From UHGV virus genome UHGV-1382276: a stretch of DNA of 23,588 nucleotides. The stretch is one strand, 5' to 3'. A program made the translations under genes and the position numbers. Source of the stretch: a virus. The notes beneath the pieces are model-generated. The model had not been told where the DNA came from and did no database searches. It saw only the letters and a list, made by a program, of their open reading frames with translations. Positions 1 to 12,737 of the stretch are shown one piece after another (position 1 is the first letter of the stretch; every line of letters starts with the position of its first letter).

Positions 1-255
1 TAACGCGTCGCCGGAAGCCACGTCATAAACCGTTTTACCCCGATGATCTTCAACGAGATGCCACGATGACTCATCACTGTTGAAAACAGCCACGAAACCA
101 GCCGGAATATCTGGCGGTGCAATATAGGTACTGTTTGCAGGCAGACCTGTATGAGGCGGAATATATGCGTCACCTTCACCAATAAATTCATTAGTTCCGG
201 CCAGCAGATTATAAATTTTTATGGTCCGTGGTTGTTCACTCATTCTGAATGCCAT
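1..255 (-). CDS. tfa: Tail fiber assembly protein Tfa, N-terminal 85 codons only; the rest of the gene lies beyond the window start
   Basis: Reverse-complement translation of 255..1 gives [85 protein letters not shown], which I recognise as the N-terminus of lambda Tfa. The ATG (255..253) overlaps the stf stop (TAATG). Absent from the ORF track because it is truncated by the window edge. Confidence 0.85.
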
Positions 256-3200
256 TATGCAAGCCTCACAATATAGTTAACGGTGATGGTATGTCCATGT
301 GAACCAATCGCAACGGAGTGCGTATGAGCACCAATACCGACAGTATGTGCGTGTGCACCTGCGCTTGCAGCAGTACCCGATACAGAGTGCGTATGAGCGC
401 CTGCAGAAGAAGTGTTAACACTGTATTTAGAATAATCAGGTGATCCACTTCCCGGAGCACCACTGGAACCACCTGAAACAAATGTCATCGAATGGGTATG
501 TGCACCGGCTGAAGCAGCCGTACCGCTAACACTATGGGTATGCGCACCAGTGTTATTCGTGGATTTAGTGCCGTAATCAAACGACGATGTGGTTTTCGTC
601 CCCAAATCAGTACTGGATGCGCTGGCGCTGTGGGTATGCGATTTTATGCCGTCCTGTTCCTGAGACAATACGGCACGACCACTGGCGGGCTTGCCCTTAA
701 TCGTCCAGCCACGCATATCAGGGATCACGCCTGACGGATAAGCGGCTGCAAGTTTCGGGTAGGCAGATTTGTCAAAAGTCTGCCCCTGCATCAGGGCATA
801 ACCAGACGGAACGGTATCTGATGGCCACGGGATTGGTGCGCCGATTGGGTAGCTTTCTGGTGGAAGATTTTTCGAGGTATAAACTTCTGCCCAGTCTTCC
901 TCAAAACCATAACCGTCTCTTGAAGAACGGTAGAACAGACCACCATTTCTGTAATGCGCCTTCATCTGCAGGGTCCGGCAACTTCCGACTCCGGTATAGA
1001 AGTTAACCAGAATATAGCTGTCGCCAGAGCGGGTGACATTATAAGCGCCTGATTCGGCATTCCAGGGAACGCCACCATCCGCATCGGCATATGTATCCGT
1101 TGCCCTTCTGGCAAAAGCAGCCACATGCGCGGCGGTTAAAGTAATATCTTTGGAACCATCAAACTCAACACCAGAAACCCGTCTTGGCGTTTGCAGCTTT
1201 GTTTCTGTTAATGCATTACCGTTCAGACTTGCGGACAGTTTGGTTCCAATAACCAGTTCGCCAGTTGCGTTATCAATAGCAAACGGTCTTAATGTATTCC
1301 AGCCACCATAAACATCACCTTGATTGGTAAGCAGCAGGTAAGTTTTAGCGCCATCATTACGCCATAATGCCCCATACTCCCCACCTATCATTCGAATCTG
1401 ATTACCACCACGCGCTACAATTTCGTCTGTGGCAAAAAGTTTTTTGCACGACAAATTATCGTTAACGATTAACGAATGAGACTCATAAAAACCACGCCCA
1501 CTCTTAAAATCAAGGATAACGTCCGCCGCGATACATTCAGTCGCTGGATTTGTTGCCCCAAACTTATAGGTCGTATCATTAACAACGAGATCAGCACCAG
1601 GTGCGGATATTGACAGGCCATCTTCGATAAACGCAAAAACAGGGAAAGCAGCGCCATCAACATAGAACACAGAGCGCAAATCATCGCCCTTATTACTCAT
1701 CATTATTGAGTGGATGGCTCGTTCATTGTTTTGATATTGCCAGAACATTCCATAAGCATAACGCCCCCTGTCAGTCCAGCCACCAGGCATAACAAATCCG
1801 TTAAACTCGCAGTTATTCATCGGATCGCCTGCGGTTCGCGTTGCCGTGGTGATAATGACCCTTGATGCCAGTTCGCTTACTGAGCCAGCAGAACGCATAA
1901 CAACAACAGGGTAATATTTTCCAGATGTTGCACCTGCAGGAGCGTTAACCCGCACATAACGCATACCACGCTTATCAGCAAAGTCTGTTTTACTGACCGC
2001 GTTAATGTTGTTCAGGAAGCGTCCCTTATCGGGTATATCAGCGCCGTTCTGGTCTTTCTGCAGACGTTTCTCTGCATTGTCATAGGCTGATTTTACTGCC
2101 TTTGGCGTTGCCGCCAGCGTTTCAGACGTACTGTTGGTCGCACTGCTGAGCTGTACTATCCCCTTTTTCGTCGTGCTCGCATCCTCAAGCGCCACGGCGG
2201 ATGCAATATCCTCTGCCCGTTTTGCCGCTGTCTCGGCGCGCGTTGCCGCGGATTCCGCCGTACTTTTGCTCTGTGCTGCCGCCGTCGCACTGCCAGCTGC
2301 CTCTGTCGCCTTCGTGGATGCTGTCGTGGCGCTGCCCTTCGCTGCTGACGCCTGTCTGGTCGCCTCATCTTTTGAAGCAGACGCCGATGATGCCGATGAC
2401 GCCGCCGAACTGGCTGACGATGCGGCAGCCGTTTTTGAGGATTCTGCGCTGGTTTCCGACGCTTTCGCGTTCGTTTCGGATGTCTTCGCTGCGGAAGCAG
2501 AACTCGCTGCTGCGCTGGCCTGTTCAGTGGCTTCGCCAGCCTTCGTTGTGGCTGTTGAAGCGGATGATGCGGCGCTTTCTGCCGATTTTCCGGCGGCGGT
2601 GGCACTGGCTGAGGCCTGCCCGGCACTTGTTGACGCGGCGCTGGCAGATGATGCAGCCGCTGTTTTTGAGCCTGCCGCAGCTGAGGCGCTCTGTCCCGCT
2701 GCCGTCTCAGAAGACTTAGCGTTCGTCTCGGACGTTTTTGCCGCCTTCGCGGAATTTCCTGCCGCCGTTGCCGAGGAAGTTGCGCTACTGGCGCTCGAGG
2801 ATGCGTTCGTTTCTGATGATTTCGCTGCCTCTTTTGAGGCCGCCGCATCCCGGGCTGAGGTGGCAGCTTCTGACGCTTTCGTGGTCGCGGTGGATGCAGA
2901 AGTGGCTGCTGATTGTTGTGACGCTGCGGCATTCGTTTCTGACGTTTTCGCGGCACTGGCACTGGTAGCTGCCGCGCTTTTTGAGGACTCTGCAGCAGCA
3001 GCACTTTTCGATGCTTCAGTGGCCTTTGTTGATGCCGTTCCTGCGCTGGAAGACGCTGACTGAGCCGACGTCGCGGCCTGCCCGGCTGATGTGCTGGCTG
3101 CGCGTGCTGAGCCTGCAGCATCAGTCGCATGGGTTGCCGCCTCACGGGCTGATGTGCTGGCATCACTGGCTGACTTCTTCGCGGCTGCCGTGTTCTGTGC

Positions 3201-3560
3201 CACCACGGACGCGTTACGCGCCACCTCTTCCACCATCAGCTCAAAACGGCGCAGTGCCTCCGGACGGGCATCATCCTCCGTCATGGCACCGAGAAAATCA
3301 TTCAGCGTACCGGGTCGGGAATCTTCATACACGGTGATGGTCCCGGCATGTGACGGCGGGAATCCTTCCACCAACAGAATAACGCTGTACTGACCGTACT
3401 CAACGTCCATGCTGTAACGCCCGGCTTCATCCGGATTTTCTGAGGCCAGCGTGTTCACCACCACCGTGGTGCTGTTACGTTTTGCTTTCAGCTGGATTGT
3501 GCAGTTCTGTACCGGTTTTCCTGTGCCGTCTTTCAGTACACCTGAAATCTTTACTGCCAT
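255..3560 (-). CDS. stf: Side tail fiber protein, intact, 1101 aa; lambda-like N-terminus and C-terminus with an expanded and partly replaced middle
   Basis: ORF track 255..3566. The N-terminal ~120 aa ([35 protein letters not shown]...) and the C-terminal ~200 aa (GAPIPWPSD...KSHTHSASA...[16 protein letters not shown]) match lambda Stf as I recall it. I place the start at the ATG 3560..3558, preceded by GGGGTG, rather than the GTG at 3566 used by the ORF track. Confidence 0.9.
2202..3209 (-). repeat. Ala/Ser/Thr-rich low-complexity coding repeat forming the stf shaft, with a recurring AAKTSETNA unit
   Basis: stf residues ~120-455 are almost entirely A/S/T/K/E with quasi-periodic units. AAKTSETNA recurs three times at ~71-83 aa spacing, and the DNA shows matching near-repeats around 2461-2490, 2711-2745 and 2930-2950. 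The plus-strand ORFs in this interval are shadows of this region. Confidence 0.7.
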
Positions 3561-3571
3561 ATTCACCCCAC

Positions 3572-3624: not shown

Positions 3625-4224
3625 TCAGAATTTATAACCGACACCCACGATGAAACCGTCAGTGCGCCAGTCGCCACTGCCGGAGCCTTCATAAGCAATA
3701 TCAATGGCCACGGATTCGGTCGGGTTAAACTGCACGCCAGCCCCCCACGCCAGAGACGTGTTGCTGTGGCGACCGTCATCACTTCCGGTCAGCACATCGT
3801 GCGTTTTCCCCTTGTTGTCAGTTACGCGGAGATAATCCCCGAAGAAAGTCGACACACGGCTGTAAGCCACACCCGCCATCGCATACACGCTGAACCATTC
3901 ATTCACGCGCACAGACGGCCCCGCCATTACGCTGAACCAGCGGTTACGAACGGAATCTTCATGCCAGCGGGTATCGCTGTAATGGGTCAGCTGGCGATTC
4001 TTGTCTCCTGCATAGCTGAATGACGTCACCATCCCCAGTGTGTCCGTAAACTCATAACGGTATTTCACGTTAATCCCGTTCAGATCATCGCTGCCGGGAA
4101 CGTTCGTCGAGGCATGAAGATACCCCGCGCTCAGCGTGGACTGATGTTCAGACGCCCATGCAGACGCACCGGATACGACCTGCCAGACTACTGCGGACAA
4201 AATAACAGCACATAATTTACGCAT
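3625..4224 (-). CDS. lom: Lom-like outer membrane beta-barrel protein (Ail/Lom/PagC family), 199 aa
   Basis: ORF track. Has an N-terminal signal-peptide-like segment (MRKLCAVILSAVVWQVVSGASAWA), a C-terminal ...AYEGSGSGDWRTDGFIVGVGYKF ending in aromatic Phe as in lambda Lom, and GAGGT/GAGAGG 6 nt upstream of the ATG. Same position as lambda lom (between J and stf) but the N-terminal two-thirds is diverged and it is 7 aa shorter than the 206 aa I recall for lambda. Confidence 0.85.
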   Translation of the reverse strand: MRKLCAVILSAVVWQVVSGASAWASEHQSTLSAGYLHASTNVPGSDDLNGINVKYRYEFTDTLGMVTSFSYAGDKNRQLTHYSDTRWHEDSVRNRWFSVMAGPSVRVNEWFSVYAMAGVAYSRVSTFFGDYLRVTDNKGKTHDVLTGSDDGRHSNTSLAWGAGVQFNPTESVAIDIAYEGSGSGDWRTDGFIVGVGYKF

Positions 4225-4291: not shown

Positions 4292-7200
4292 TCAGCTAAT
4301 CGTGATGCCTGCAGTGGCTTTCTTCATCACCACAACCAGCAGATCGCTGATACTGGTTGTTGGTGTCCAGTTATTCGCTCCTGATGAAGATACGGTGAAT
4401 GTCAGTGTCAGTGTCCCCTGTCCGGCAGGCATATCTATAACTGAGGAAAATACGCCCTGAGCATCCGTCGTGGACTGATTAAAAATCTCCTGACCATTGC
4501 GGGTCACTCTTAACCGGCAGGTTGAATACCAGTATGACTGTTGGTTATTACTGTTGAAATTCTCATGCTTACCACCGCGGAATAACACTGGAGGTATCAT
4601 GACCTGCCGGTCAAACTTCTGATCATCACTGATTCTTACCGTGATGGTGCCACTGGCATAACTGTTCGTGCGGGGGAAAGACTTGCTGACCGTTTTGACA
4701 ATATCGCCTTCAATCTGATTGGCTGACAGTTTCCCCTTAATCTGACAGTTCTCATTAATCGTGACGTTGTTGAGCGTCCCGGAGTTCGCATTCACACTGC
4801 CACTGATATCCGCATTTTTAGCAGTCAGCTTTCCGTCCGGTGTCAGGGAAAATGCCGGTGGATTTCCACCGCTGGTAATGGTGGGGGCCGTCAGGCGTTT
4901 CAGGAACACGTCGTTCATGAATATCTGATCGCCCTGACCAACAAACATCGGTTTTGTGTTGCCATTCGCAGGATTAACCATCGCAATCCTGTCCGCCGCC
5001 AGCAGCACCTGACTCTGCATGCCGTCAGGGGTGTTCTCAATACCGGCACCAATACCCGCGATATAAAGGCGTCCGTCCTGCATCTGCTGCAGCTTCACAG
5101 CCCACATGCTGTTCAGGTTATTATTTGTATCAACCTGAACCTTCTGTATCTGCTGAATTGCCGCACTCTGGTCTTCCAGTTTCTTATTGACGGTCTGCGT
5201 GATTTCATTGCTGACATCCGTAATGGACGTCCTGATTTCAGCCAGGTCAGGCGCAAGCTGACCGTTATCAATCTGCGTCCACAGCTCCTGAGCCAGATGG
5301 CTTTTCCCTATCTCGCCTTTGAAAAAATCCAGATAGCCGGATGCATCATCACTCGGCTGACCAACAGCCTCCACGAATGCCGATTTGCCAACGGTGTTCA
5401 CACTGCGGATATAAAAGTAATAATCATGGCCCGGTTTGATATTGATACTGGCGGCTATCCAGTACATCCCCGTGCCAAGATAGCGCGCGCTGGTTTCAAC
5501 CTGCCTGATATCCGCAATCCGCTTTTCCGAGAACCAGAACTCAAACTGTACCGTCGGATCATAAACCGCAAGATGCGGCGTGGCGGTTATCTGAAAATAC
5601 CCCGGTGTCAGCTCAATCTGCGACGGCGCTGCCGGTGCGGCAATCCGGAACGATACCGATGCCGGATCGCCCTGCTGCCCCCACGCATTTACTGCCCGGA
5701 CTGTCAGCCTGTAGTTCCCCAGCGCCAGTTGTGTGAAGCGGTATGTGGTTTCCGCCGTCCGGGCTGTGCTGACCAGCCGCTCACTGCCGTCATCCGCTGC
5801 CACGGTCAGGCGAAGCATAAAGCTCACCCCCTTCACCACCTTCGGCGTGTCCCAGCGGGCCAGTACCTGATATTCCCCGCTGTCTGCGGTGACTTCGGCA
5901 GTCAGGTGCTGCACCGCTGGCGGCGTGACACCATTCACCGTGCCGCTCTGGTCGCCGTCAAAGTGCGCCCCGTTATCCACGATGGCCTCTTTTTCCGGTA
6001 CATGCTGCACGGCGGTGATGGCATACATACCGTCGTCGTTCTCACGGATACTCACGCAGCGGAACAGGCGCTGGCGCAGCGTCGGCAGCTTCAGCCCCCA
6101 CACGCTGTATCCGGCAACGCCGTCAGGAACACGGCTCACTTTTACCTTCACGCCGTCGGTGACGGACTGGACCTCCACGCTGACCGGATTGCCACTTCCG
6201 TCAACCAGGCTTATCAGCGTGGTACCGGAGGATGGCAGCGTGATTTCACGGTCGAGCGTCAGCGTCCGGGTCTGGCTGTTCACCGCCAGCACGCGCCCGC
6301 CGGTGCGGATACCGGCATAGTCATCATCGCAGATTTCAATGACATCGCCCGGCACATGGCGAAGCCCTTCTGCGCCCACGCTGAAATCCACGGTCTGTGT
6401 TTCCAGCAGTTCTGTTTTAATCAGCCACAGCCCGGCGCGATGTGCCTGCCCCCGGCTGGTACAGCCAAAGGCATCCATCTTCGTGACGTTACGACCGTAA
6501 CGGGCAATGGCCTGCGTGTCCTCCACAAGCTCTGTCGCCGTCTCCCAGCCGTTATTCGGGTCAATCCAGTTCACCTCAACGGCATTATGGCGGTCCTTCA
6601 GGGCGCTGAAGCTGTAGCGGAACGGCGCGCCATCATCCGGCATCACCACATTACTGCGGTTATAGGTCCACACCTTATCTGATGGTCGGTCCTGCACGAA
6701 CGTCAGCGTCTGCCCGTTCCATACCGGCATACAGCGCATCGCCGAGCAGAAATCACTGAGCACATCCCACGCCTTGCGCTGTGTGGTCAGGTACGCATTA
6801 CAGATGATGCGCGGCTCCGTGCCGCCAAAGCCGTCCGGCACTGACTGGTCGCAGTACTGGCCGATGACATACAGCGCCCATTTATCCACATCCGCCGCAC
6901 CAAGACGTTTCCCCATGCCGTAGCGCGGATGGGTCAGCATATCCCACAGACACCAGGCCATGTTGTTGCTGTATGCCGGTTTAAACGTTCCGTCCCAGAT
7001 ACCGCTGTATTGCCGCGTCTGCGGGTTATAGTTCGACGGCACCTGCAGAATGCGCCCGCGCAGATGATAATTACGGCTCACCTGCTGGCTGCCGAACTGC
7101 TCCGAATCCACCTGCACGCCGACCAGTGCCGTGTTCGGGTAGCCCTGTTTCACATCGATGATTTCGGTGTATGACGACCAGAGCGTTTTGTTCTGCAGCT

Positions 7201-7774
7201 GGTCTGTGGTGCTGTCCGGCGTCATCCTGCGCATCCGGATATTGAACGGGCGCGGCGGCAGGTTACCCACCACCACCGAGGCCAGATACTGCGAGGTGGT
7301 TTTGCCCTTAATGGTGATGTCTTTTTCCGTCACCCAGCCACCATTACGCTGTATCTGAACCAGCAGGCGAACTTCCGACGGATTCCGGTCCCCCTTTGAG
7401 GTGGTTTCCACCAGTGCCTGCACGCCGAAGGTAAAACGCAGTCGGTCAATGTTTGCCGACGTGATGGTCCGGGTGATCGGCGTGTCGTATTTCACTTCCG
7501 TACCCAGCACCGTCTCGGAGCCGGAGGATTCAAATCCCTCCGGCGGTGTCTGCTCCTGCTCACCGGCCCGGAACACCACCGTGACGCCGGAGATATTGGT
7601 ATTCCCCTCACTGTCCAGCACTGGCGTACTGTTCAGCAGCACGCTTTTTAATCCATCCACCGGACCTTCAACCGGCCCTTCGCTGATGGCATCGATCACA
7701 CTCAGCAACTGCGTGGACTTCAGGTTGTCCTTCGCTTCGCGCGGGGTATGCCCCTTACTGCTGCCTTTACCCAT
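4292..7774 (-). CDS. J: Tail tip central fiber / host specificity protein J, 1160 aa
   Basis: ORF track. The N-terminal ~800 aa ([34 protein letters not shown]...) match lambda J. The C-terminal ~350 aa diverge from what I recall of lambda J and are 28 aa longer than lambda's 1132. Confidence 0.93.
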
Positions 7775-7833
7775 TCCTCACGCTCCATAAACGACAAAAC
7801 CGCCCGGAGGCGGTTTCACATAAACGTTTTTCA

Positions 7834-8505
7834 TCATCGACCAATCACCACAACCTGACCACCATCCCCTTCGTCTGCCGTGCTGATCTCCTGAGAGACC
7901 ACCCGCGACCCCACGCGCATTTCACCGTACAGAACCGGCAGAACATTGCCCTGGGCAACCATGTTATCCAGTGAGGAGAAATAGGTGTTCTGTTTGCCGT
8001 TATCCGTTGTCTGTGTACGGGGAGTTCTGGCTTTCGGTGCCAGCATCTGCGCCACACCACCGAGCACCATACTGGCACCGAGAGAAAACAGGATGCCGGT
8101 CATACCACCGGCCCCAATGGCTGCCCCCCATGCTGCAAGGGTGGCCCCGGCGGTAAAGAATGATCCGGCAATGGCGGCAGCCCCCAGGACAATCTGGAAT
8201 ACGCCACCTGACTTGGCCCCGGCGACTCTGGGAACAATATGAATCACAGCGCCATCAGGCAGAGTCTCATGTAACTGCGCCGTTAATCCGGACGTGCTGA
8301 CATCCTGCCCGGCAATCCGTACCTGATACCAGCCGTCGCTCAGTTTCTGACGAAACGCCGGGAGCTGTGTGGCCAGTGCGCGGATGGCTTCAGCCCCCGT
8401 TTTCACACGAAGGTCGATGCGGCGGCCAAATCGTTGTAAATCCCCGTAAAGGCAGATGCGCGCCATGCCCGGTGACGCCAGAGGGAGTGTGTGCGTCGCT
8501 GCCAT
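7834..8505 (-). CDS. I: Tail tip assembly protein I, 223 aa (ubiquitin-like beta-grasp N-domain)
   Basis: ORF track. The sequence MAATHTLPLASPGMARICLYGDLQRFGRRIDLRV... matches lambda gpI. Its 5' end overlaps the 3' end of K by 103 nt in a different frame. An alternative internal start at Met14 cannot be excluded. Confidence 0.88.
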   Translation of the reverse strand: MAATHTLPLASPGMARICLYGDLQRFGRRIDLRVKTGAEAIRALATQLPAFRQKLSDGWYQVRIAGQDVSTSGLTAQLHETLPDGAVIHIVPRVAGAKSGGVFQIVLGAAAIAGSFFTAGATLAAWGAAIGAGGMTGILFSLGASMVLGGVAQMLAPKARTPRTQTTDNGKQNTYFSSLDNMVAQGNVLPVLYGEMRVGSRVVSQEISTADEGDGGQVVVIGR

Positions 8506-9146
8506 TTGTCGGTATACCTCTCTCGTTTGCTCAGTTGTTCAGGAATATGGTGCAGCAGCTCGCCATCACCACAGTAAATGGCGGCATGATTCGGCACCGA
8601 TGAACCAAAACAGCACAGCAGCACATCGCCCGGTTGTGCTGATGACAACGGCACCTGATACAGCCCTGTGGCCTCCAGATTATCCAGATAGAGATTCTGG
8701 CCGTTACGCCACCAGTCATCCTCACGATGAAAGTCCGGCATCTCAATCCCCGCCAGATGATAAGCATCCCGGAACAGTGTGTAACAGTCCGTCACACCGT
8801 GCTCAAAGCGCCGCCCGGTGAGATGCGGCACACAGCGGAACTTATGAATCGTCCCCCGGCAGACCAGCCACCACGGCAAATCACTCTGCACCTGCAGCCG
8901 CCGGTCGGCCTCACTCAGCCAGGGCAGACCACCGGGGTGGCTGTGGACCAGCGCCACAATCTCACCCTGCATTTCTGCCTGCAGCCAGTCTTCCGGCGAC
9001 ATACGGAAATACGCCTCCGGCTCACCGGAGATATTCACGCAGGGGAAATATCTTTCCCCCTCCGGCGTGCTTACCACGAAGCCGCACGACTCCGCTGGCG
9101 CACATCGCCGGGCGTGCGCCAGAATCGCTGATTCTGTCTGTGTCAT
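8403..9146 (-). CDS. K: Tail tip assembly protein K with JAMM/MPN metallopeptidase and NlpC/P60 domains; longest ORF is 247 aa, the conventional lambda start corresponds to Met49 (8403..9002)
   Basis: ORF track. HSHPGGLPWLSEAD (H-x-H-x7-S-x2-D) is encoded at 8904..8945, with a P-A-E-S-C-G motif ~49 residues upstream. The C-terminal half has NlpC/P60-like Cys (GVTDCYTLF) and His (NHAAIYCGDGELLHH). The rest matches lambda gpK. Confidence 0.8.
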   Translation of the reverse strand: MTQTESAILAHARRCAPAESCGFVVSTPEGERYFPCVNISGEPEAYFRMSPEDWLQAEMQGEIVALVHSHPGGLPWLSEADRRLQVQSDLPWWLVCRGTIHKFRCVPHLTGRRFEHGVTDCYTLFRDAYHLAGIEMPDFHREDDWWRNGQNLYLDNLEATGLYQVPLSSAQPGDVLLCCFGSSVPNHAAIYCGDGELLHHIPEQLSKRERYTDKWQRRTHSLWRHRAWRASAFTGIYNDLAAASTFV

Positions 9147-9151
9147 GGGAT

Positions 9152-9850
9152 TTACTGCGAAAGTTTGTTAATGGAAAGGAAGCCGCCAAAGTTGCCGACG
9201 TTATTGCGGAACTTACAACCGCTCAGGCATTTGCTGCATTTATCCTTCGTGATATCGGACGTTGGCTGGTCATATTCATCCGCGACAGCCGGACCGCTAT
9301 AACCGCACTCGTCACCGCGATAGGTCCAGGTGCAGGTGTTGGCCAGCATGATACGTCCCGGAAAAACAGCGCCATCCGTTTCCGTCGGCGTGGACAGTAC
9401 AAAGGAGGCACTCACCGCGCTCAGTTCGCTGCACTGCTCAATGCGCCAGCGGCTGATCACCTCCTGCTCCGGATCGGCATAACTGTTTCCGTTGACGAAG
9501 TTCACCGCATCCAGAAAACGGGCGTAAACCTTACGCCGGACCACCGTTCCGCCGACCAGACTCTGCATATCTTCCGCCATCCCGGTGACCATACCGTACA
9601 GGTTAGAAACCGTCAGCGTGGGGCGCGTACTGGTGCCTTTGCCATTCAGTTCAAAACCGCTCCCCTGAATGGGATACGGCTGATACTGTCGCCCCTGCCA
9701 GGTGACCGGCTCACCTTTTTCGTTCTGCTCATTACAGAAAAAATAACGTTCTCCACCGACCTCTGTCAGGTCGATTTCCCAGAGCACCACGCTGGCCGAC
9801 TGCTCCGCACGGGTGCATTCATTCAGTGTTTCCTGCCGGATATCCTGCAT
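9152..9850 (-). CDS. L: Tail tip assembly protein L, 232 aa
   Basis: ORF track. Length and sequence (MQDIRQETLNECTRAEQSASVVLWEIDLTEV...) match lambda gpL, with a C-terminal cysteine cluster. The start overlaps the M stop by 1 nt. Confidence 0.92.
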   Translation of the reverse strand: MQDIRQETLNECTRAEQSASVVLWEIDLTEVGGERYFFCNEQNEKGEPVTWQGRQYQPYPIQGSGFELNGKGTSTRPTLTVSNLYGMVTGMAEDMQSLVGGTVVRRKVYARFLDAVNFVNGNSYADPEQEVISRWRIEQCSELSAVSASFVLSTPTETDGAVFPGRIMLANTCTWTYRGDECGYSGPAVADEYDQPTSDITKDKCSKCLSGCKFRNNVGNFGGFLSINKLSQ

Positions 9851-10179
9851 CAGTTCACCACCTGTTCAAACTCTGCGCTGAACTCAACACGCAGCATACT
9901 GACCCGCGACGACCATTTTGCGCAGGTCACCTTTATCTGCCGCCACTCATAAGGCGGCGTCCACAGAAAGGATTTCCAGCCCCCGTGCTCTTCCAGAAAC
10001 GACTCCAGTACCGTGGCCTCCTCACGGGGGACAGAAAGCGTCACGCTGTACGTTTTCAGGTTGGCATTCAGCCCGGCAGGCGCTCGCTGAGAATAGCCAT
10101 CACCAAAGCGCACCTTTCTTACAGAAGGGACCGAAGCCACATCCATACCGGGTTTCACTTTCCAGCGGAAGGTCTTCAT
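9850..10179 (-). CDS. M: Tail assembly protein M, 109 aa
   Basis: ORF track. MKTFRWKVKPGMDVASVPSVRKVRFGDGYSQRAP... matches lambda gpM. ATGA overlap with the H stop. Confidence 0.92.
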   Translation of the reverse strand: MKTFRWKVKPGMDVASVPSVRKVRFGDGYSQRAPAGLNANLKTYSVTLSVPREEATVLESFLEEHGGWKSFLWTPPYEWRQIKVTCAKWSSRVSMLRVEFSAEFEQVVN

Positions 10180-12737
10180 CGTCCACCTCCGGAGAACAGG
10201 CCACCATCACGCATCTGTGTCTGAATTTCATCACGGGCACCCTTGCGGGCCATGTCATACACCGCCTTCAGAGCAGCCGGACCTATCTGCCCGTTCGTGC
10301 CGTCGTTGTTAATCACCACATGGTTATTCTGCTCAAACGTCCCGGACGCCTGCGACCGGCTGTCTGCCATGCTGCCCGGTGTACCGACATAACCGCCGGT
10401 GGCATAGCCGCGCATCAGCCGGTAAAGATTCCCCACGCCAATCCGGCTGGTTGCCTCCTTCGTGAAGACAAACTCACCACGGTGAACAATCCCCGCTGGC
10501 TCATATTTGCCGCCGGTTCCCGTAAATCCTCCGGTTGCAAAATGGAATTTCGCCGCAGCGGCCTGAATGGCTGTACCGCCTGACGCGGATGCGCCGCCAC
10601 CAACAGCCCCGCCAATGGCGCTGCCGATACTCCCGACAATCCCCACCATTGCCTGCTTAAGCAGAATTTCTGTCATCATGGACAGCACGGAACGGGTGAA
10701 GCTGCGCCAGTTCTGCTCACTGCCGGTCAGCATCGCCGCCATATTCTGTGCAATACCATCAAAGGTCTGCGTGGCTGCACTTTTTACCTGCGACATACTG
10801 TCCGTGGCGCTCTCTTCCCACTCACTCCAGCCGGACTTCAGGCCTGCCATCCAGTTCCCGCGAAGCTGGTCTTCAGCCGCCCAGGTCTTTTTCTGCTCTG
10901 ACATGACGTTATTCAGCGCCAGCGGATTATCGCCATACTGTTCCTTCAGGCGCTGTTCCGTGGCTTCCCGTTCTGCCTGCCGGTCAGTCAGCCCCCGGCT
11001 TTTCGCATCAATGGCGGCCCATTTTGCCCGTTGCTGCTGTGCGAATTTATCCGCCTGCTGCGCCAGCGCGTTCAGGCGCTCCTGATACGTAACCTTGTCG
11101 CCAAGTGCAGCCAGCTGGCGTTTGTACTCCAGCGTCTCATCTTTATGCGCCAGCAGGGATTTCTCCTGTGCAGACAGCTGGCGACGTTGCGCCGCCTCCT
11201 CCAGTACCGCGAACTGACTCTCCGCCTTCCACAAATCCCGGCGCTGCTGGCTGATTTTCTCATTTGCTCCGGCATGCTTCTCCAGCGTCCGGAGTTCTGC
11301 CTGAAGCGTCAGCAGGGCAGCATGAGCACTGTCTTCCTGACGATCGCCCGCAGACACCTTCACGCCGGACTGTTTCGGCTTTTTCAGCGTCGCTTCATAA
11401 TCCTTTTTCGCCGCCGCCATCAGCGTGTTGTAATCCGCCTGCAGGATTTTCCCGTCTTTCAGTGCCTTGTTCAGTTCTTCCTGACGGGCGGTATATTTCT
11501 CCAGCGGCGTCTGCAGCCGTTCGTAAGCCTTCTGCGCCTCTTCGGTATATTTCAGCCGTGACGCTTCGGTATCGCTCTGCTGCTGCGCATTTTTGTCCTG
11601 TTGACTCTGCTGCTCAGCCTTCTTTCGGGCGGCTTCAAGCGCAAGACGGGCCTTTTCACGATCATCCCAGTAACGCGCCCGCGCTTCATCGTTAACAAAA
11701 TAATCATCCTTGCGCAGATTCCAGATATCGTCCGCTTTCTTAAACGCGGCCTCTGCCTTAATCAGCATCTCCTGCGCGGTATCAGGACGACCAATATCCA
11801 GCACCGCATCCCACATGGATTTGAATGCCCGTGCTGTCCTGTCTGCCCAGGTTTCCAGCGTGCCCATGTTCTCTTTCAGGCGGCGGGTCTGGTCATCAAA
11901 CCCTTTCGTCGCGGCCTCGTTCGCCGCCTGCAATGCCCCGGCTTCTTCGCCGGAACGCTGCAACTGAGCAACATACGCAATCTGCTCCGCCGTCACGTTA
12001 TGGAACTGGCGCGCCATCGCTGTCAGCCCCGACGTCGGGTCAGTGGTCAGCTTCCCGAAGGCTTCAGCGACCTTGTCCACCTCCACGCCGGATGCAGAGG
12101 AGAAACGCGCCACACTCTGGCTGATGGACGCAATCTGAGCCTCACCGCTTACCCCCGCCTTAACCAGTGCGCTGAGTGACTCGCTGGTCTGGTTAAACGT
12201 CAGCCCTGCCGCCTGCCCGGCTCTGGACAGGACCAGCATACGATCTGCCGTCAGCCCGGCCTGATTGCCGGAAAGGACCAGCGTTTTGTTGAAATCGGAC
12301 AGGGTTGAGTTGCCCTGATACCAGGCATACGCCAGCGCACCGGTCGCCACCGCCAGCGAGGTGGCCCCCACCATCGGCAGGGTGATCGCACCGGCAAGCC
12401 CCCGGAACATGGGGATCATCCCGCCGAAGGAGTCCTTCACCTGACCCCCCTGTTGCAGCAGGATCAGCCACGGACTTTGCCCGCCTGCAAGCTGCGTGGC
12501 CACGTCAGTGAACTGCGCAGGCAGCATACGCATGGCGGCTTTATACTGCCCGACGGAAATTCCCGCTTTCTGTGCAGCCAGCGCCTGCCGGTTCATCGAC
12601 TGTTCAACGACTGCCGCTGTTTTTTTCGCATCACTTTCCGTACCGGAAAAATGACGCCTGACTCTGGCCATCTGCTCGTCAAATCTGGCCGCATCCAGAC
12701 TCAAATCAACGACCAGATCGCCTACCGGTTCAGCCAT
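10176..12737 (-). CDS. H: Tail tape measure protein H, 853 aa
   Basis: ORF track. Same length as lambda gpH; long alpha-helical, Ala/Gln/Glu-rich protein; position between the G-T chaperone genes and M. Confidence 0.93.
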   Translation of the reverse strand: MAEPVGDLVVDLSLDAARFDEQMARVRRHFSGTESDAKKTAAVVEQSMNRQALAAQKAGISVGQYKAAMRMLPAQFTDVATQLAGGQSPWLILLQQGGQVKDSFGGMIPMFRGLAGAITLPMVGATSLAVATGALAYAWYQGNSTLSDFNKTLVLSGNQAGLTADRMLVLSRAGQAAGLTFNQTSESLSALVKAGVSGEAQIASISQSVARFSSASGVEVDKVAEAFGKLTTDPTSGLTAMARQFHNVTAEQIAYVAQLQRSGEEAGALQAANEAATKGFDDQTRRLKENMGTLETWADRTARAFKSMWDAVLDIGRPDTAQEMLIKAEAAFKKADDIWNLRKDDYFVNDEARARYWDDREKARLALEAARKKAEQQSQQDKNAQQQSDTEASRLKYTEEAQKAYERLQTPLEKYTARQEELNKALKDGKILQADYNTLMAAAKKDYEATLKKPKQSGVKVSAGDRQEDSAHAALLTLQAELRTLEKHAGANEKISQQRRDLWKAESQFAVLEEAAQRRQLSAQEKSLLAHKDETLEYKRQLAALGDKVTYQERLNALAQQADKFAQQQRAKWAAIDAKSRGLTDRQAEREATEQRLKEQYGDNPLALNNVMSEQKKTWAAEDQLRGNWMAGLKSGWSEWEESATDSMSQVKSAATQTFDGIAQNMAAMLTGSEQNWRSFTRSVLSMMTEILLKQAMVGIVGSIGSAIGGAVGGGASASGGTAIQAAAAKFHFATGGFTGTGGKYEPAGIVHRGEFVFTKEATSRIGVGNLYRLMRGYATGGYVGTPGSMADSRSQASGTFEQNNHVVINNDGTNGQIGPAALKAVYDMARKGARDEIQTQMRDGGLFSGGGR

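What the first reader, a model, noticed from the sequence alone, without database searches (positions are those of the whole stretch)
7834..9146. Adjacent I and K encode a ubiquitin-like domain followed by Gly-Gly next to a JAMM plus NlpC/P60 dual peptidase
Seen in sequence: I has an N-terminal ~95-aa region (ARICLYGDLQRFGRRIDLRV...VIHIVPRVAG) followed by AKSGG and then a long Gly/Ala-rich hydrophobic segment (VFQIVLGAAAIAGSFFTAGATLAAWGAAIGAGGMTGILFSLGASMVLGG). K carries JAMM (HSHPGG...SEAD) and NlpC/P60-like Cys/His motifs. The two genes overlap by 103 nt out of frame. Established knowledge: comparative analyses have proposed that gpI is a beta-grasp ubiquitin-like protein and gpK a JAB peptidase that may process it. 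Inference: this is a ubiquitin-like processing module embedded in tail-tip assembly; the cleavage site and the role of the NlpC/P60 half are unresolved as far as I know.
Basis: partly seen in the sequence, partly recalled or inferred. Interest (0 to 1): 0.45.

Follow-up and report, generated by a model that had tools for sequence, protein, structure and literature searches.

The report
Lambda K protease trims ubiquitin-like I
These are phage lambda's tail-tip assembly genes K and I: K carries a deubiquitinase-type protease that clips a ubiquitin-like cap off I while the tail tip is built, a pairing predicted in 2006 and recently reported as confirmed, so it is real but already known.

Summary
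On the minus strand, I (7834-8505, 223 aa) and K (8403-9146, 247 aa) overlap by 103 nt out of frame. They sit in an H-M-L-K-I-J tail module about 98% identical to phage lambda.

I has an N-terminal domain (residues 14-97) that models as a MoaD/SAMP/ubiquitin-type beta-grasp. A charge-free Gly/Ala-rich hydrophobic stretch follows (102-156), then the C-terminal plug domain seen in lambda virion structures.

K is a JAMM/JAB metalloprotease (E19, H68-x-H70, S78, D81) fused to an NlpC/P60 cysteine peptidase (C121, H187, H199). Every one of these residues is invariant or nearly so in diverse relatives.

It is now backed by three things:
- virion cryo-EM and mass spectrometry show only I residues ~134-223;
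- a 2026 F-pyocin preprint shows the homologue's N-terminus is removed;

One refinement comes from this work. The conserved, MoaD-equivalent "di-glycine" is P92-x-x-x-G96-A/S97, not G100-G101. The scissile bond is therefore more likely A97|K98.

The role of the NlpC/P60 half remains open. Novelty: already known. Interest is low.

The parts
7834..8505 (-). Gene I (tail tip assembly / plug protein precursor), 223 aa; 2 substitutions from lambda gpI
   Evidence: ORF; PDB 8iyk chain I E=9e-141; Pfam PF06805
8215..8466 (-). Ubiquitin-like beta-grasp domain of I (residues 14-97)
   Evidence: Pfam Lambda_tail_I 14-97. AF2 model has strands 14-19, 29-33, 60-64, 87-92 and helix 37-47. Foldseek matches MoaD, SAMP1, CysO and Urm1.
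8215..8232 (-). Conserved Ubl tail P92-R-V-A-G96-A97, equivalent to the P-x-V-x-G-G C-terminus of MoaD/ThiS-type proteins; favoured cleavage motif (inference)
   Evidence: P92 81/83, G96 81/83, A/S97 74/83; profile alignment to 1v8c and 4n6e
8203..8208 (-).
   Evidence: G100 40/83, G101 67/83; spacer 98-100 varies in length
8038..8202 (-). Charge-free Gly/Ala-rich hydrophobic segment of I (102-156), with invariant G108, G143 and G150
   Evidence: Composition and hydropathy; invariant glycines; residues ~134-152 form helices around the gpH C-terminus in virions
7837..8037 (-). C-terminal plug domain of I (157-223), the part built into the tail-tip lumen
   Evidence: PDB 8iyk/8iyl/8k35/8xcg/9e7m; modelled residues 133/135-223
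8403..9146 (-). Gene K, 247 aa, non-structural tail-tip assembly peptidase; start lies 5 nt after the L stop codon
   Evidence: ORF; 96-98% identity to 247-aa clusters with thousands of members; start context
8832..9146 (-). JAMM/JAB (MPN+) metalloprotease domain of K (1-105), including E19 (9090-9092)
   Evidence: Pfam Prok-JAB 3-104; Foldseek matches PfJAMM1 5ld9/5lda, Rpn11 and CSN5; E19 invariant 36/36
8904..8945 (-). JAMM motif H68-S-H70-PGGLPWL-S78-EA-D81
   Evidence: Sequence; H68, H70 and D81 36/36, S78 35/36 in diverse K relatives
8475..8816 (-). NlpC/P60 (C40) papain-like peptidase domain of K (111-224); C121 at 8784-8786, H187 at 8586-8588, H199 at 8550-8552
   Evidence: Pfam NLPC_P60; Foldseek matches MepS, LytE and C. 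difficile hydrolases; the triad is intact in all 36 of 38 unique sequences that cover it
8403..8505 (-). 103-nt K/I overlap: K residues 214-247 over I residues 1-34, with I in the -1 frame; no slippery heptamer
   Evidence: Both reading frames are conserved among lambda-like relatives. The overlap is much shorter or absent in distant relatives.

Best explanation
This is the lambda gpK/gpI tail-tip maturation pair.

gpI is made as a precursor with three parts: a ubiquitin-like beta-grasp cap (14-97), a charge-free hydrophobic helical segment (102-156), and a C-terminal plug domain (157-223). [quoted passage not shown]

gpK is a low-abundance, non-structural enzyme. Its JAMM zinc site is formed by H68, H70 and D81, with E19 as general base and S78. 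That site recognises the beta-grasp cap and its extended tail ...V-P92-R-V-A-G96-A97 and hydrolyses the peptide bond just after the tail. The most likely bond is A97|K98; the alternative is G101|V102.

Cleavage happens once gpI is installed in the tip complex. The ~9-10 kDa cap is released and the ~12.5 kDa membrane-active plug stays in the tail. The cap most plausibly keeps the hydrophobic precursor soluble and blocks later assembly steps until it is removed, acting as a proteolytic checkpoint.

What rests on what:
- Shown or reported: the domain folds (predicted), the motifs and their conservation, the synteny, the absence of cap and K from virions, and K-dependent cleavage (meeting report).
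- Inferred: the exact bond, the chaperone/checkpoint role of the cap, and any role of the NlpC/P60 half.
For: - Identity with lambda: region 97.8-98.4% identical; gpI E=9e-141.
- Domains.
- Catalytic residues invariant in 36 diverse K relatives, and nearly so in 30 close ones.
- A JAB gene lies immediately upstream of Ubl-I in all 42 tail-context loci with upstream sequence plus 3 distant phages. This includes a lineage whose K is JAB-only.
- JAB-I and K-I fusion families exist in PHROGs.
- Only gpI ~134-223 is modelled in five virion structures.
- Virion MS found no gpK and one gpI peptide at 9.87% coverage, which is 22 aa. Only tryptic peptide 202-223 has that length.
- The PA0640 N-terminus is present in stalled F-pyocin tips, absent from mature particles, and PA0639 (the K homologue) is required for tips.
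- A meeting report says gpK cleaves the Ubl from gpI only after gpI joins the complex.
- Tail motif conservation and alignment to the MoaD-type C-terminus.
Against: - The direct biochemical evidence available here is a second-hand conference summary. No peer-reviewed data or cleavage site could be found.
- Recombinant PA0640 loses its N-terminus to unknown E. coli proteases without its K partner, so non-specific removal is possible.
- Cryo-EM invisibility and a single MS peptide are also compatible with a flexible, still-attached cap.
- The AF2 model of the cap is only moderately confident (pLDDT 73.7, shallow alignment).
- The sequence alignments to MoaD-like chains that place the di-Gly equivalent at G96-A97 are marginal on their own (E 0.12-0.2).
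Confidence: 0.85

Rival explanations
1. The cap is removed, but at G100-G101|V102 as the reader implied (a classical Gly-Gly site) rather than after G96-A97.
For: A literal GG is present and G101 is Gly in 67/83 representatives. Deubiquitinases typically cut after Gly-Gly (established knowledge).
Against: G100 is Gly in only 40/83. The 98-100 spacer varies from 0 to 4 residues. A JAB-only lineage has ...VPLAHG-NFF... with no downstream GG. Profile alignments put MoaD/ThiS-type terminal GG on G96-A97.
Confidence: 0.3
2. The N-terminal domain is not specifically cleaved by K. Either it stays attached but disordered in the virion, or it is trimmed by host proteases, and K acts only as a chaperone or scaffold.
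For: The cap is simply unseen in cryo-EM maps. Recombinant PA0640 is clipped by unknown E. coli proteases. The F-pyocin authors say the cleavage mechanism is not established.
Against: The complete JAMM catalytic set is invariant across distant relatives, which a scaffold would not need. JAB and Ubl are strictly paired, with fusions. The meeting report describes K-dependent cleavage. The N-terminus is stable in stalled tips yet absent from mature particles.
Confidence: 0.08
3. K is mainly a peptidoglycan hydrolase (NlpC/P60 endopeptidase) that helps the tail cross the cell wall at infection, as proposed for the RcGTA g14 peptidase.
For: The C-half matches gamma-D-Glu-mDAP endopeptidases such as MepS and LytE. 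Its Cys-His-His triad is invariant. RcGTA g14 degrades peptidoglycan and may sit in the tail lumen.
Against: gpK is not detected in lambda virions by MS or cryo-EM. PA0639 is absent from F-pyocin particles. Lambda virions are stated to contain no such enzyme. Some lineages keep JAB and Ubl but have no NlpC/P60 in the module. RcGTA g14 deletion also blocks tail formation, which points to an assembly role.
Confidence: 0.1
4. The Ubl is a true conjugatable modifier or sulfur carrier like ThiS/MoaD/SAMP. After release it would be activated and attached to another protein.
For: The nearest structural relatives are MoaD, SAMP1, CysO and Urm1. Cleavage would expose a small-residue C-terminus.
Against: No E1/E2-like gene lies in the H-M-L-K-I-J module here or in any related locus examined. 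The exposed end would be G-A/S rather than GG in most members. Iyer et al. also found only JAB plus Ubl in phage clusters.
Confidence: 0.03

Closest known systems
Phage lambda gpK (P03729 family) and gpI (tail tip assembly protein I; PDB 8iyk, 8iyl, 8k35, 8xcg, 9e7m)
   Same: Orthologues. I differs from lambda gpI at 2 of 223 residues and K is 96-98% identical to the common 247-aa form. Gene order H-M-L-K-I-J is the same, and so is the 103-nt overlap.
   Different: There are only a few substitutions (I: Q67 for R, T164 for I). Older lambda records annotate K as 199 aa from M49, which truncates the JAB domain.
TAPI/TAPK module of Iyer, Burroughs & Aravind 2006 (Genome Biol 7:R60)
   Same: This is exactly that module: a ThiS/MoaD-like Ubl with a conserved C-terminal glycine, next to a JAB + NlpC/P60 protein predicted to release the Ubl.
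   Different: That paper stated TAPI is not incorporated into tails. Later structures show its C-terminal part is incorporated.
Pseudomonas F-pyocin PA0640 (tip plug) / PA0639 (gpK homologue)
   Same: The arrangement is the same. Only C-terminal residues 127-200 are seen in particles. The N-terminus is present in stalled tips and absent in mature ones. PA0639 is non-structural and essential for tip formation. PDB chains 9l9p_A and 25vf_9 match the Ubl profile (E 1e-16, 1e-13) and carry the same VP-x-x-x-GS-K-x-x-G tail.
   Different: It is a tailocin, not a phage. The protease responsible was left open by those authors.
JAMM proteases acting on prokaryotic Ubls (Pyrococcus JAMM1-SAMP2, PDB 5lda; Mec+/CysO; proteasomal Rpn11)
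   Same: Same fold and the same E...HxH...S..D zinc site. The substrate is a MoaD/SAMP-like beta-grasp with a short flexible tail.
   Different: Here the substrate is a linear fusion to a structural protein, not an isopeptide conjugate. No E1/E2 is present. P1 is probably Ala/Ser rather than Gly. The protease is fused to an NlpC/P60 domain.
RcGTA g14 NlpC/P60 tail peptidase
   Same: It is an NlpC/P60 protein encoded between hub and central-fibre genes, and it is required for tail formation.
   Different: g14 is 150 aa. It was shown to degrade peptidoglycan and may be carried in the particle. gpK is absent from virions.
Phage T5 pb3 plug domain
   Same: It occupies the same place in the tip lumen as the gpI trimer, and a membrane-insertion role has been proposed for it too.
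   Different: It is an internal domain of the hub protein. It has no ubiquitin-like cap and no K-like protease.

Membership tests
Lambda gpI / Pfam PF06805 Lambda_tail_I | Significant match to the family model and to lambda gpI over full length | tested here: met
   PF06805 97.6 bits against a cutoff of 23.8; 8iyk_I E=9.4e-141, residues 1-223
Lambda gpI / gpK tail-tip module | Synteny: tape measure H - M - L - K - I - J on one strand | tested here: met
   ORFs and Pfam for L and M; lambda annotation; same order in distant phages
Ubiquitin-like beta-grasp, ThiS/MoaD clade | Beta-grasp fold (beta-beta-alpha-beta-beta-beta) | tested here: met
   AF2 model pLDDT 73.7. Top Foldseek hits are MoaD-related 1v8c, MoaD 1fm0, SAMP1, CysO and Urm1, probability 1.00, TM 0.6-0.7 on the target. 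This is a predicted structure, not an experimental one.
Ubiquitin-like beta-grasp, ThiS/MoaD clade | Conserved small-residue (Gly-Gly) tail 4-5 residues after the last strand | tested here: met
   P92-x-x-x-G96-[A/S]97 conserved in 81, 81 and 74 of 83. It aligns to ...PPVAGG / ...PAVAG(G) of 1v8c and 4n6e. This is a G-A/S variant of the motif. The literal G100-G101 is poorly conserved.
Ubiquitin-like beta-grasp, ThiS/MoaD clade | Partner E1-like adenylating enzyme (for a conjugation or sulfur-carrier role) | tested here: not met
   No such gene lies in the module in the window or in related loci. It therefore works as a cleavable Ubl fusion, not as a modifier.
JAMM/MPN+ metalloprotease (Pfam PF14464 Prok-JAB) | E-x(n)-H-x-H-x7-S-x2-D motif complete | tested here: met
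   E19, H68, H70, S78, D81; invariant in 36 diverse relatives, with one S-to-T change
JAMM/MPN+ metalloprotease (Pfam PF14464 Prok-JAB) | MPN fold | tested here: met
   Pfam 52.3 bits against a cutoff of 25. In the AF2 model the mean pLDDT of the 10-residue blocks covering residues 1-100 is 77-95. Foldseek matches 5ld9/5lda, Rpn11 and CSN5.
JAMM/MPN+ metalloprotease (Pfam PF14464 Prok-JAB) | Zinc-dependent cleavage after the Ubl tail | not testable with these tools
   There is only a second-hand report that gpK cleaves the Ubl of gpI.
NlpC/P60 (MEROPS C40, Pfam PF00877) | Papain-like fold with a Cys-His-His/polar triad | tested here: met
   Pfam 49.3 bits against a cutoff of 23. C121, H187 and H199 are spaced as in MepS-type enzymes and are intact in all 36 sequences that cover them. 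Foldseek matches MepS, LytE, 4hpe and 4xcm.
NlpC/P60 (MEROPS C40, Pfam PF00877) | Peptidoglycan endopeptidase activity, and presence where peptidoglycan is (virion or periplasm) | tested here: inconclusive
   Activity cannot be tested here. K is absent from virions by MS and cryo-EM, which argues against a virion lysin role.

The most novel reading that the evidence does not exclude
The NlpC/P60 half of K may not be a cell-wall enzyme at all. It could be a second dedicated assembly protease or amidase. [quoted passage not shown] That would make K a two-headed maturation enzyme. Its Cys-His-His triad is invariant although K never enters the virion. Even so, the domain is dispensable in at least one lineage that keeps the JAB-Ubl pair.
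Probability: 0.2. Interest if true: 0.55.

Novelty: already known. Interest (0 to 1): 0.2.

Why it matters
The pair is a clean viral example of ubiquitin-type logic used for assembly control: a beta-grasp cap removed by a JAMM protease. It is often cited as a prokaryotic antecedent of the deubiquitinase/ubiquitin relationship.

Knowing the exact scissile bond and what the cap prevents would explain how a strongly hydrophobic, membrane-active plug is delivered safely into the tail tip. That applies to lambda-like phages, T1-like phages and F-type tailocins.

This window adds no new biology, because it is essentially lambda itself. Two things remain testable: the proposal made here that cleavage follows G96-A97, and the function of the NlpC/P60 half.

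Tried and rejected
- The search for related loci with the 57-sequence I alignment failed because no stretch was conserved enough.
- A scan with representative P0349 found nothing.
- Literature searches for a full paper on gpK cleaving gpI found none: 'gpK'+'ubiquitin' and 'tail tip complex'+JAB+NlpC+siphophage. One search was rejected for syntax.
- The Tai tail-interference paper turned out to be unrelated to I and K.
- Programmed -1 frameshifting from K into I was considered, since I is in the -1 frame. No X XXY YYZ heptamer lies in the last 200 nt of K. The K-I fusion proteins in the databases are mostly singletons, so they are most simply explained by indels in the overlap.
- G133-G134, just before the first residue modelled in virions, was considered as a cleavage site. 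It was rejected because that stretch is indel-rich and unconserved even among close relatives.
- P0288, a 2783-aa 'hit' with 23 stretches, is an unrelated repetitive sequence.
- The terminator scan did not flag the I-J hairpin; direct folding did show it.
- Natural K-I fusions were considered as a way to model the K:I complex. This was dropped because the structure tool returns no coordinates or PAE with which to judge docking.
Full report
WHAT IS THERE

The window is the left (structural) arm of a lambda-type genome, read in reverse. From high to low coordinates the minus strand carries terminase, portal and head genes, then tail genes. The tail genes end with H (10176-12737), M (9850-10179), L (9152-9850), K (8403-9146), I (7834-8505) and J (4292-7774).

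The 1.6 kb around the finding is 97.8-98.4% identical to phage lambda and its close relatives. I differs from lambda gpI at two positions. K is 96-98% identical to the widespread 247-aa form.

This covers the coordinates, the quoted peptide segments, the JAMM motif H68-S-H70-x7-S78-x2-D81 with E19 upstream, the NlpC/P60 Cys/His residues (C121, H187, H199), and the 103-nt out-of-frame overlap at 8403-8505. Pfam confirms the three domains well above threshold: Lambda_tail_I on I 14-97, Prok-JAB on K 3-104, and NLPC_P60 on K 111-224.

ANATOMY OF I

An AlphaFold2 model of I 1-105 was built on 30 sequences and has a mean pLDDT of 73.7. It has the strand/helix order of a beta-grasp. Its best matches among solved structures are a Thermus MoaD-related protein, MoaD, SAMP1, CysO and Urm1, followed by SUMO, NEDD8 and ubiquitin.

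Residues 102-156 carry no charged residue, are 45% Gly+Ala and are strongly hydrophobic. G108, G143 and G150 are invariant across 57 diverse sequences.

Residues from ~134 onward are the only part of gpI modelled in five lambda virion or tail entries. There a gpI trimer plugs the tip lumen, binds gpJ by beta-augmentation and cradles the C-terminus of gpH.

ANATOMY OF K

The K model (pLDDT 81) separates into two halves:
- The N-terminal half matches Pyrococcus JAMM1 (alone and bound to SAMP2), Rpn11, CSN5 and STAMBPL1.
- The C-terminal half matches NlpC/P60 endopeptidases such as MepS, LytE and Clostridioides hydrolases.

In 36 non-identical K relatives taken from metagenomic viral contigs and distant phages, E19, H68, H70 and D81 are invariant and S78 is Ser in 35. 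C121, H187 and H199 are intact in every sequence that covers them. The same holds among 30 closer relatives. Both active sites are thus under selection.

The 247-aa reading frame is the relevant one. It starts 5 nt after the L stop codon and has no Shine-Dalgarno sequence, which suggests translational coupling. The classical 199-aa annotation starts at M49, behind a GGAGG, and would remove E19.

LINKAGE OF THE TWO GENES

Forty-nine related loci were recovered from viral contigs. In every locus where I lies in a tail module with upstream sequence available, a JAB-bearing gene lies directly upstream. The same is true in Acinetobacter phage Acba_11, Salmonella phage SSU5 and the T1-like phage IsaakIselin.

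One lineage (L048/L049) has a 117-aa JAB-only protein between L and I, with no NlpC/P60 anywhere in the module. The JAB-Ubl pairing therefore persists without the second peptidase. PHROGs contains a JAB-I fusion family and a K-I fusion family.

The long overlap is a lambda-clade peculiarity. Elsewhere the genes overlap by 1-64 nt or are separated. In lambda, the first 39 nt of the overlap encode a 13-residue N-terminal extension of I that distant homologues lack. The remaining 64 nt encode a C-terminal tail of K laid over the first strands of the Ubl. No slippery heptamer that could fuse the two frames is present.

WHAT IS ALREADY KNOWN

They identified the ThiS/MoaD-like Ubl in 'TAPI' and the JAB + NlpC/P60 architecture of 'TAPK'. 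They predicted that JAB releases the Ubl at its C-terminal glycine. Later work is consistent with this:
- Virion mass spectrometry found no gpK.
- That same dataset found one gpI peptide with 9.87% coverage, i.e. 22 residues. The only 22-residue tryptic peptide of gpI is the C-terminal 202-223.
- In the F-pyocin, the gpI homologue PA0640 keeps its N-terminus in stalled tips but lacks it in mature particles. The gpK homologue PA0639 is non-structural and required for tip formation.
- A summary of a 2025 plenary talk by A. [quoted passage not shown]

I found no full paper with the data or the cleavage site.

REFINEMENT OF THE CLEAVAGE MOTIF (INFERENCE)

I examined 83 representatives that are under 50% identical to one another. 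The conserved residues after the last Ubl strand are P92 (81/83), G96 (81/83) and A/S97 (74/83). G100 is Gly in only 40 and G101 in 67, and the spacer 98-100 varies in length.

A profile of the Ubl domain aligns ...V-P-x-x-x-G-A to the ...P-P-V-A-G-G of the MoaD-related protein 1v8c. It also aligns to the ...P-A-V-A-G(-G) C-terminus of the ThiS/MoaD protein 4n6e. These matches are marginal by sequence (E 0.12 and 0.2), but 1v8c is also the top structural hit.

The JAB-only lineage has ...VPLAHG-NFF... with no downstream GG. The equivalent of ubiquitin's G75-G76 is therefore G96-A97.

MECHANISM

The likely sequence has six steps:
1. K is translated at a low level, coupled to L. I is translated from its own ribosome-binding site.
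2. The I precursor carries the Ubl cap, which probably shields or solubilises the hydrophobic segment and marks an unfinished tip.
3. I joins J and L.
4. The JAMM site of K engages the cap and its tail and cuts.
5. The cap and K leave.
6. The plug remains and holds gpH until the receptor triggers opening.

From my own knowledge of the classical complementation work (Katsura and colleagues), K acts after J, I and L. That fits the order given.

THE NLPC/P60 HALF

Its homology points to peptidoglycan endopeptidases, and the RcGTA counterpart g14 degrades peptidoglycan. However, K is not in lambda virions and PA0639 is not in pyocin particles. Deletion of g14 also abolishes tails, and one lineage lacks the domain altogether.

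An assembly-stage proteolytic or docking role is therefore at least as likely as a lytic one. The catalyst of the gpH to gpH* cut is explicitly unknown. This question stays open.

VERDICT

Novelty: already known. Interest is low (0.2). The residual value lies in the unpublished cleavage site and the unexplained second peptidase.

Noticed in passing
L043-L046 (I-like ORF e.g. L045:3968-4582), L042:2628-3269: Orphan I homologues carry the Ubl cap, the hydrophobic segment, the plug and the VP-x-x-x-GS tail, but have no K/JAB, L or J beside them. In L045 the gene order is portal, head completion, HNH, TerS, TerL, I-like, then a host phosphoribosyltransferase. That looks like a capsid-forming, tail-less satellite (PICI-type). 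Such a protein would depend on a helper phage's K, so it could be a tail-hijacking or interference factor.
   Followed up: partly
L048:3651-4004 and L049:1105-1458: K is reduced to a 117-aa JAB-only protein inside an otherwise complete H-M-L-K-I-J module, with no NlpC/P60 domain. The I tail there reads VPLAHG followed directly by the hydrophobic segment.
   Followed up: partly
window 7775-7833 (minus strand), between I stop and J start: A stable GC-rich hairpin (AAACCGCC-UCCG-GGCGGUUU) followed by a U-run: dG -20.8 kcal/mol, z -2.8 against shuffles. It is terminator-like and lies inside the late operon. The consensus scan did not list it.
   Followed up: partly
window 9002 (K Met49) and 9146 (K Met1): The full-length K start has no Shine-Dalgarno and lies 5 nt after the L stop. 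The internal Met49 has GGAGG 11 nt upstream and is the start used in classical lambda annotation (199 aa). A shorter JAMM-dead K isoform made from Met49 cannot be excluded.
   Followed up: no
proteins P0135, P0150, P0200, P0237, P0009, P0012 and others; phrog_28576, phrog_35166: Many database proteins fuse K (or only its NlpC/P60 or JAB part) to I. Most are singletons and are most simply explained by indels in the out-of-frame overlap. PHROGs nevertheless holds whole families of K-I and JAB-I fusions.
   Followed up: no
L029-L039 (e.g. L029:3419-3959): In one clade, K and I are separated by about 540 nt with no same-strand ORF of 70 aa or more. The content of this spacer was not examined.
   Followed up: no
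window 255-3566 and 4292-7774 (minus strand): The central fibre J is 1160 aa here. Downstream of a 199-aa ORF at 3625-4224 there is an uninterrupted 1103-aa ORF in the position where lambda has its side tail fibre genes. From memory, lambda J is 1132 aa and the 199-aa ORF is in the lom position. The tail-fibre end of this phage therefore differs from laboratory lambda.
   Followed up: no
L041:3211-3796: An I homologue is split into a 91-aa Ubl-only ORF and a 105-aa hydrophobic+plug ORF by a frame change right after the Ubl tail (...EGSKK). It is probably a frameshift error or pseudogene, but the break falls exactly at the domain boundary.
   Followed up: no
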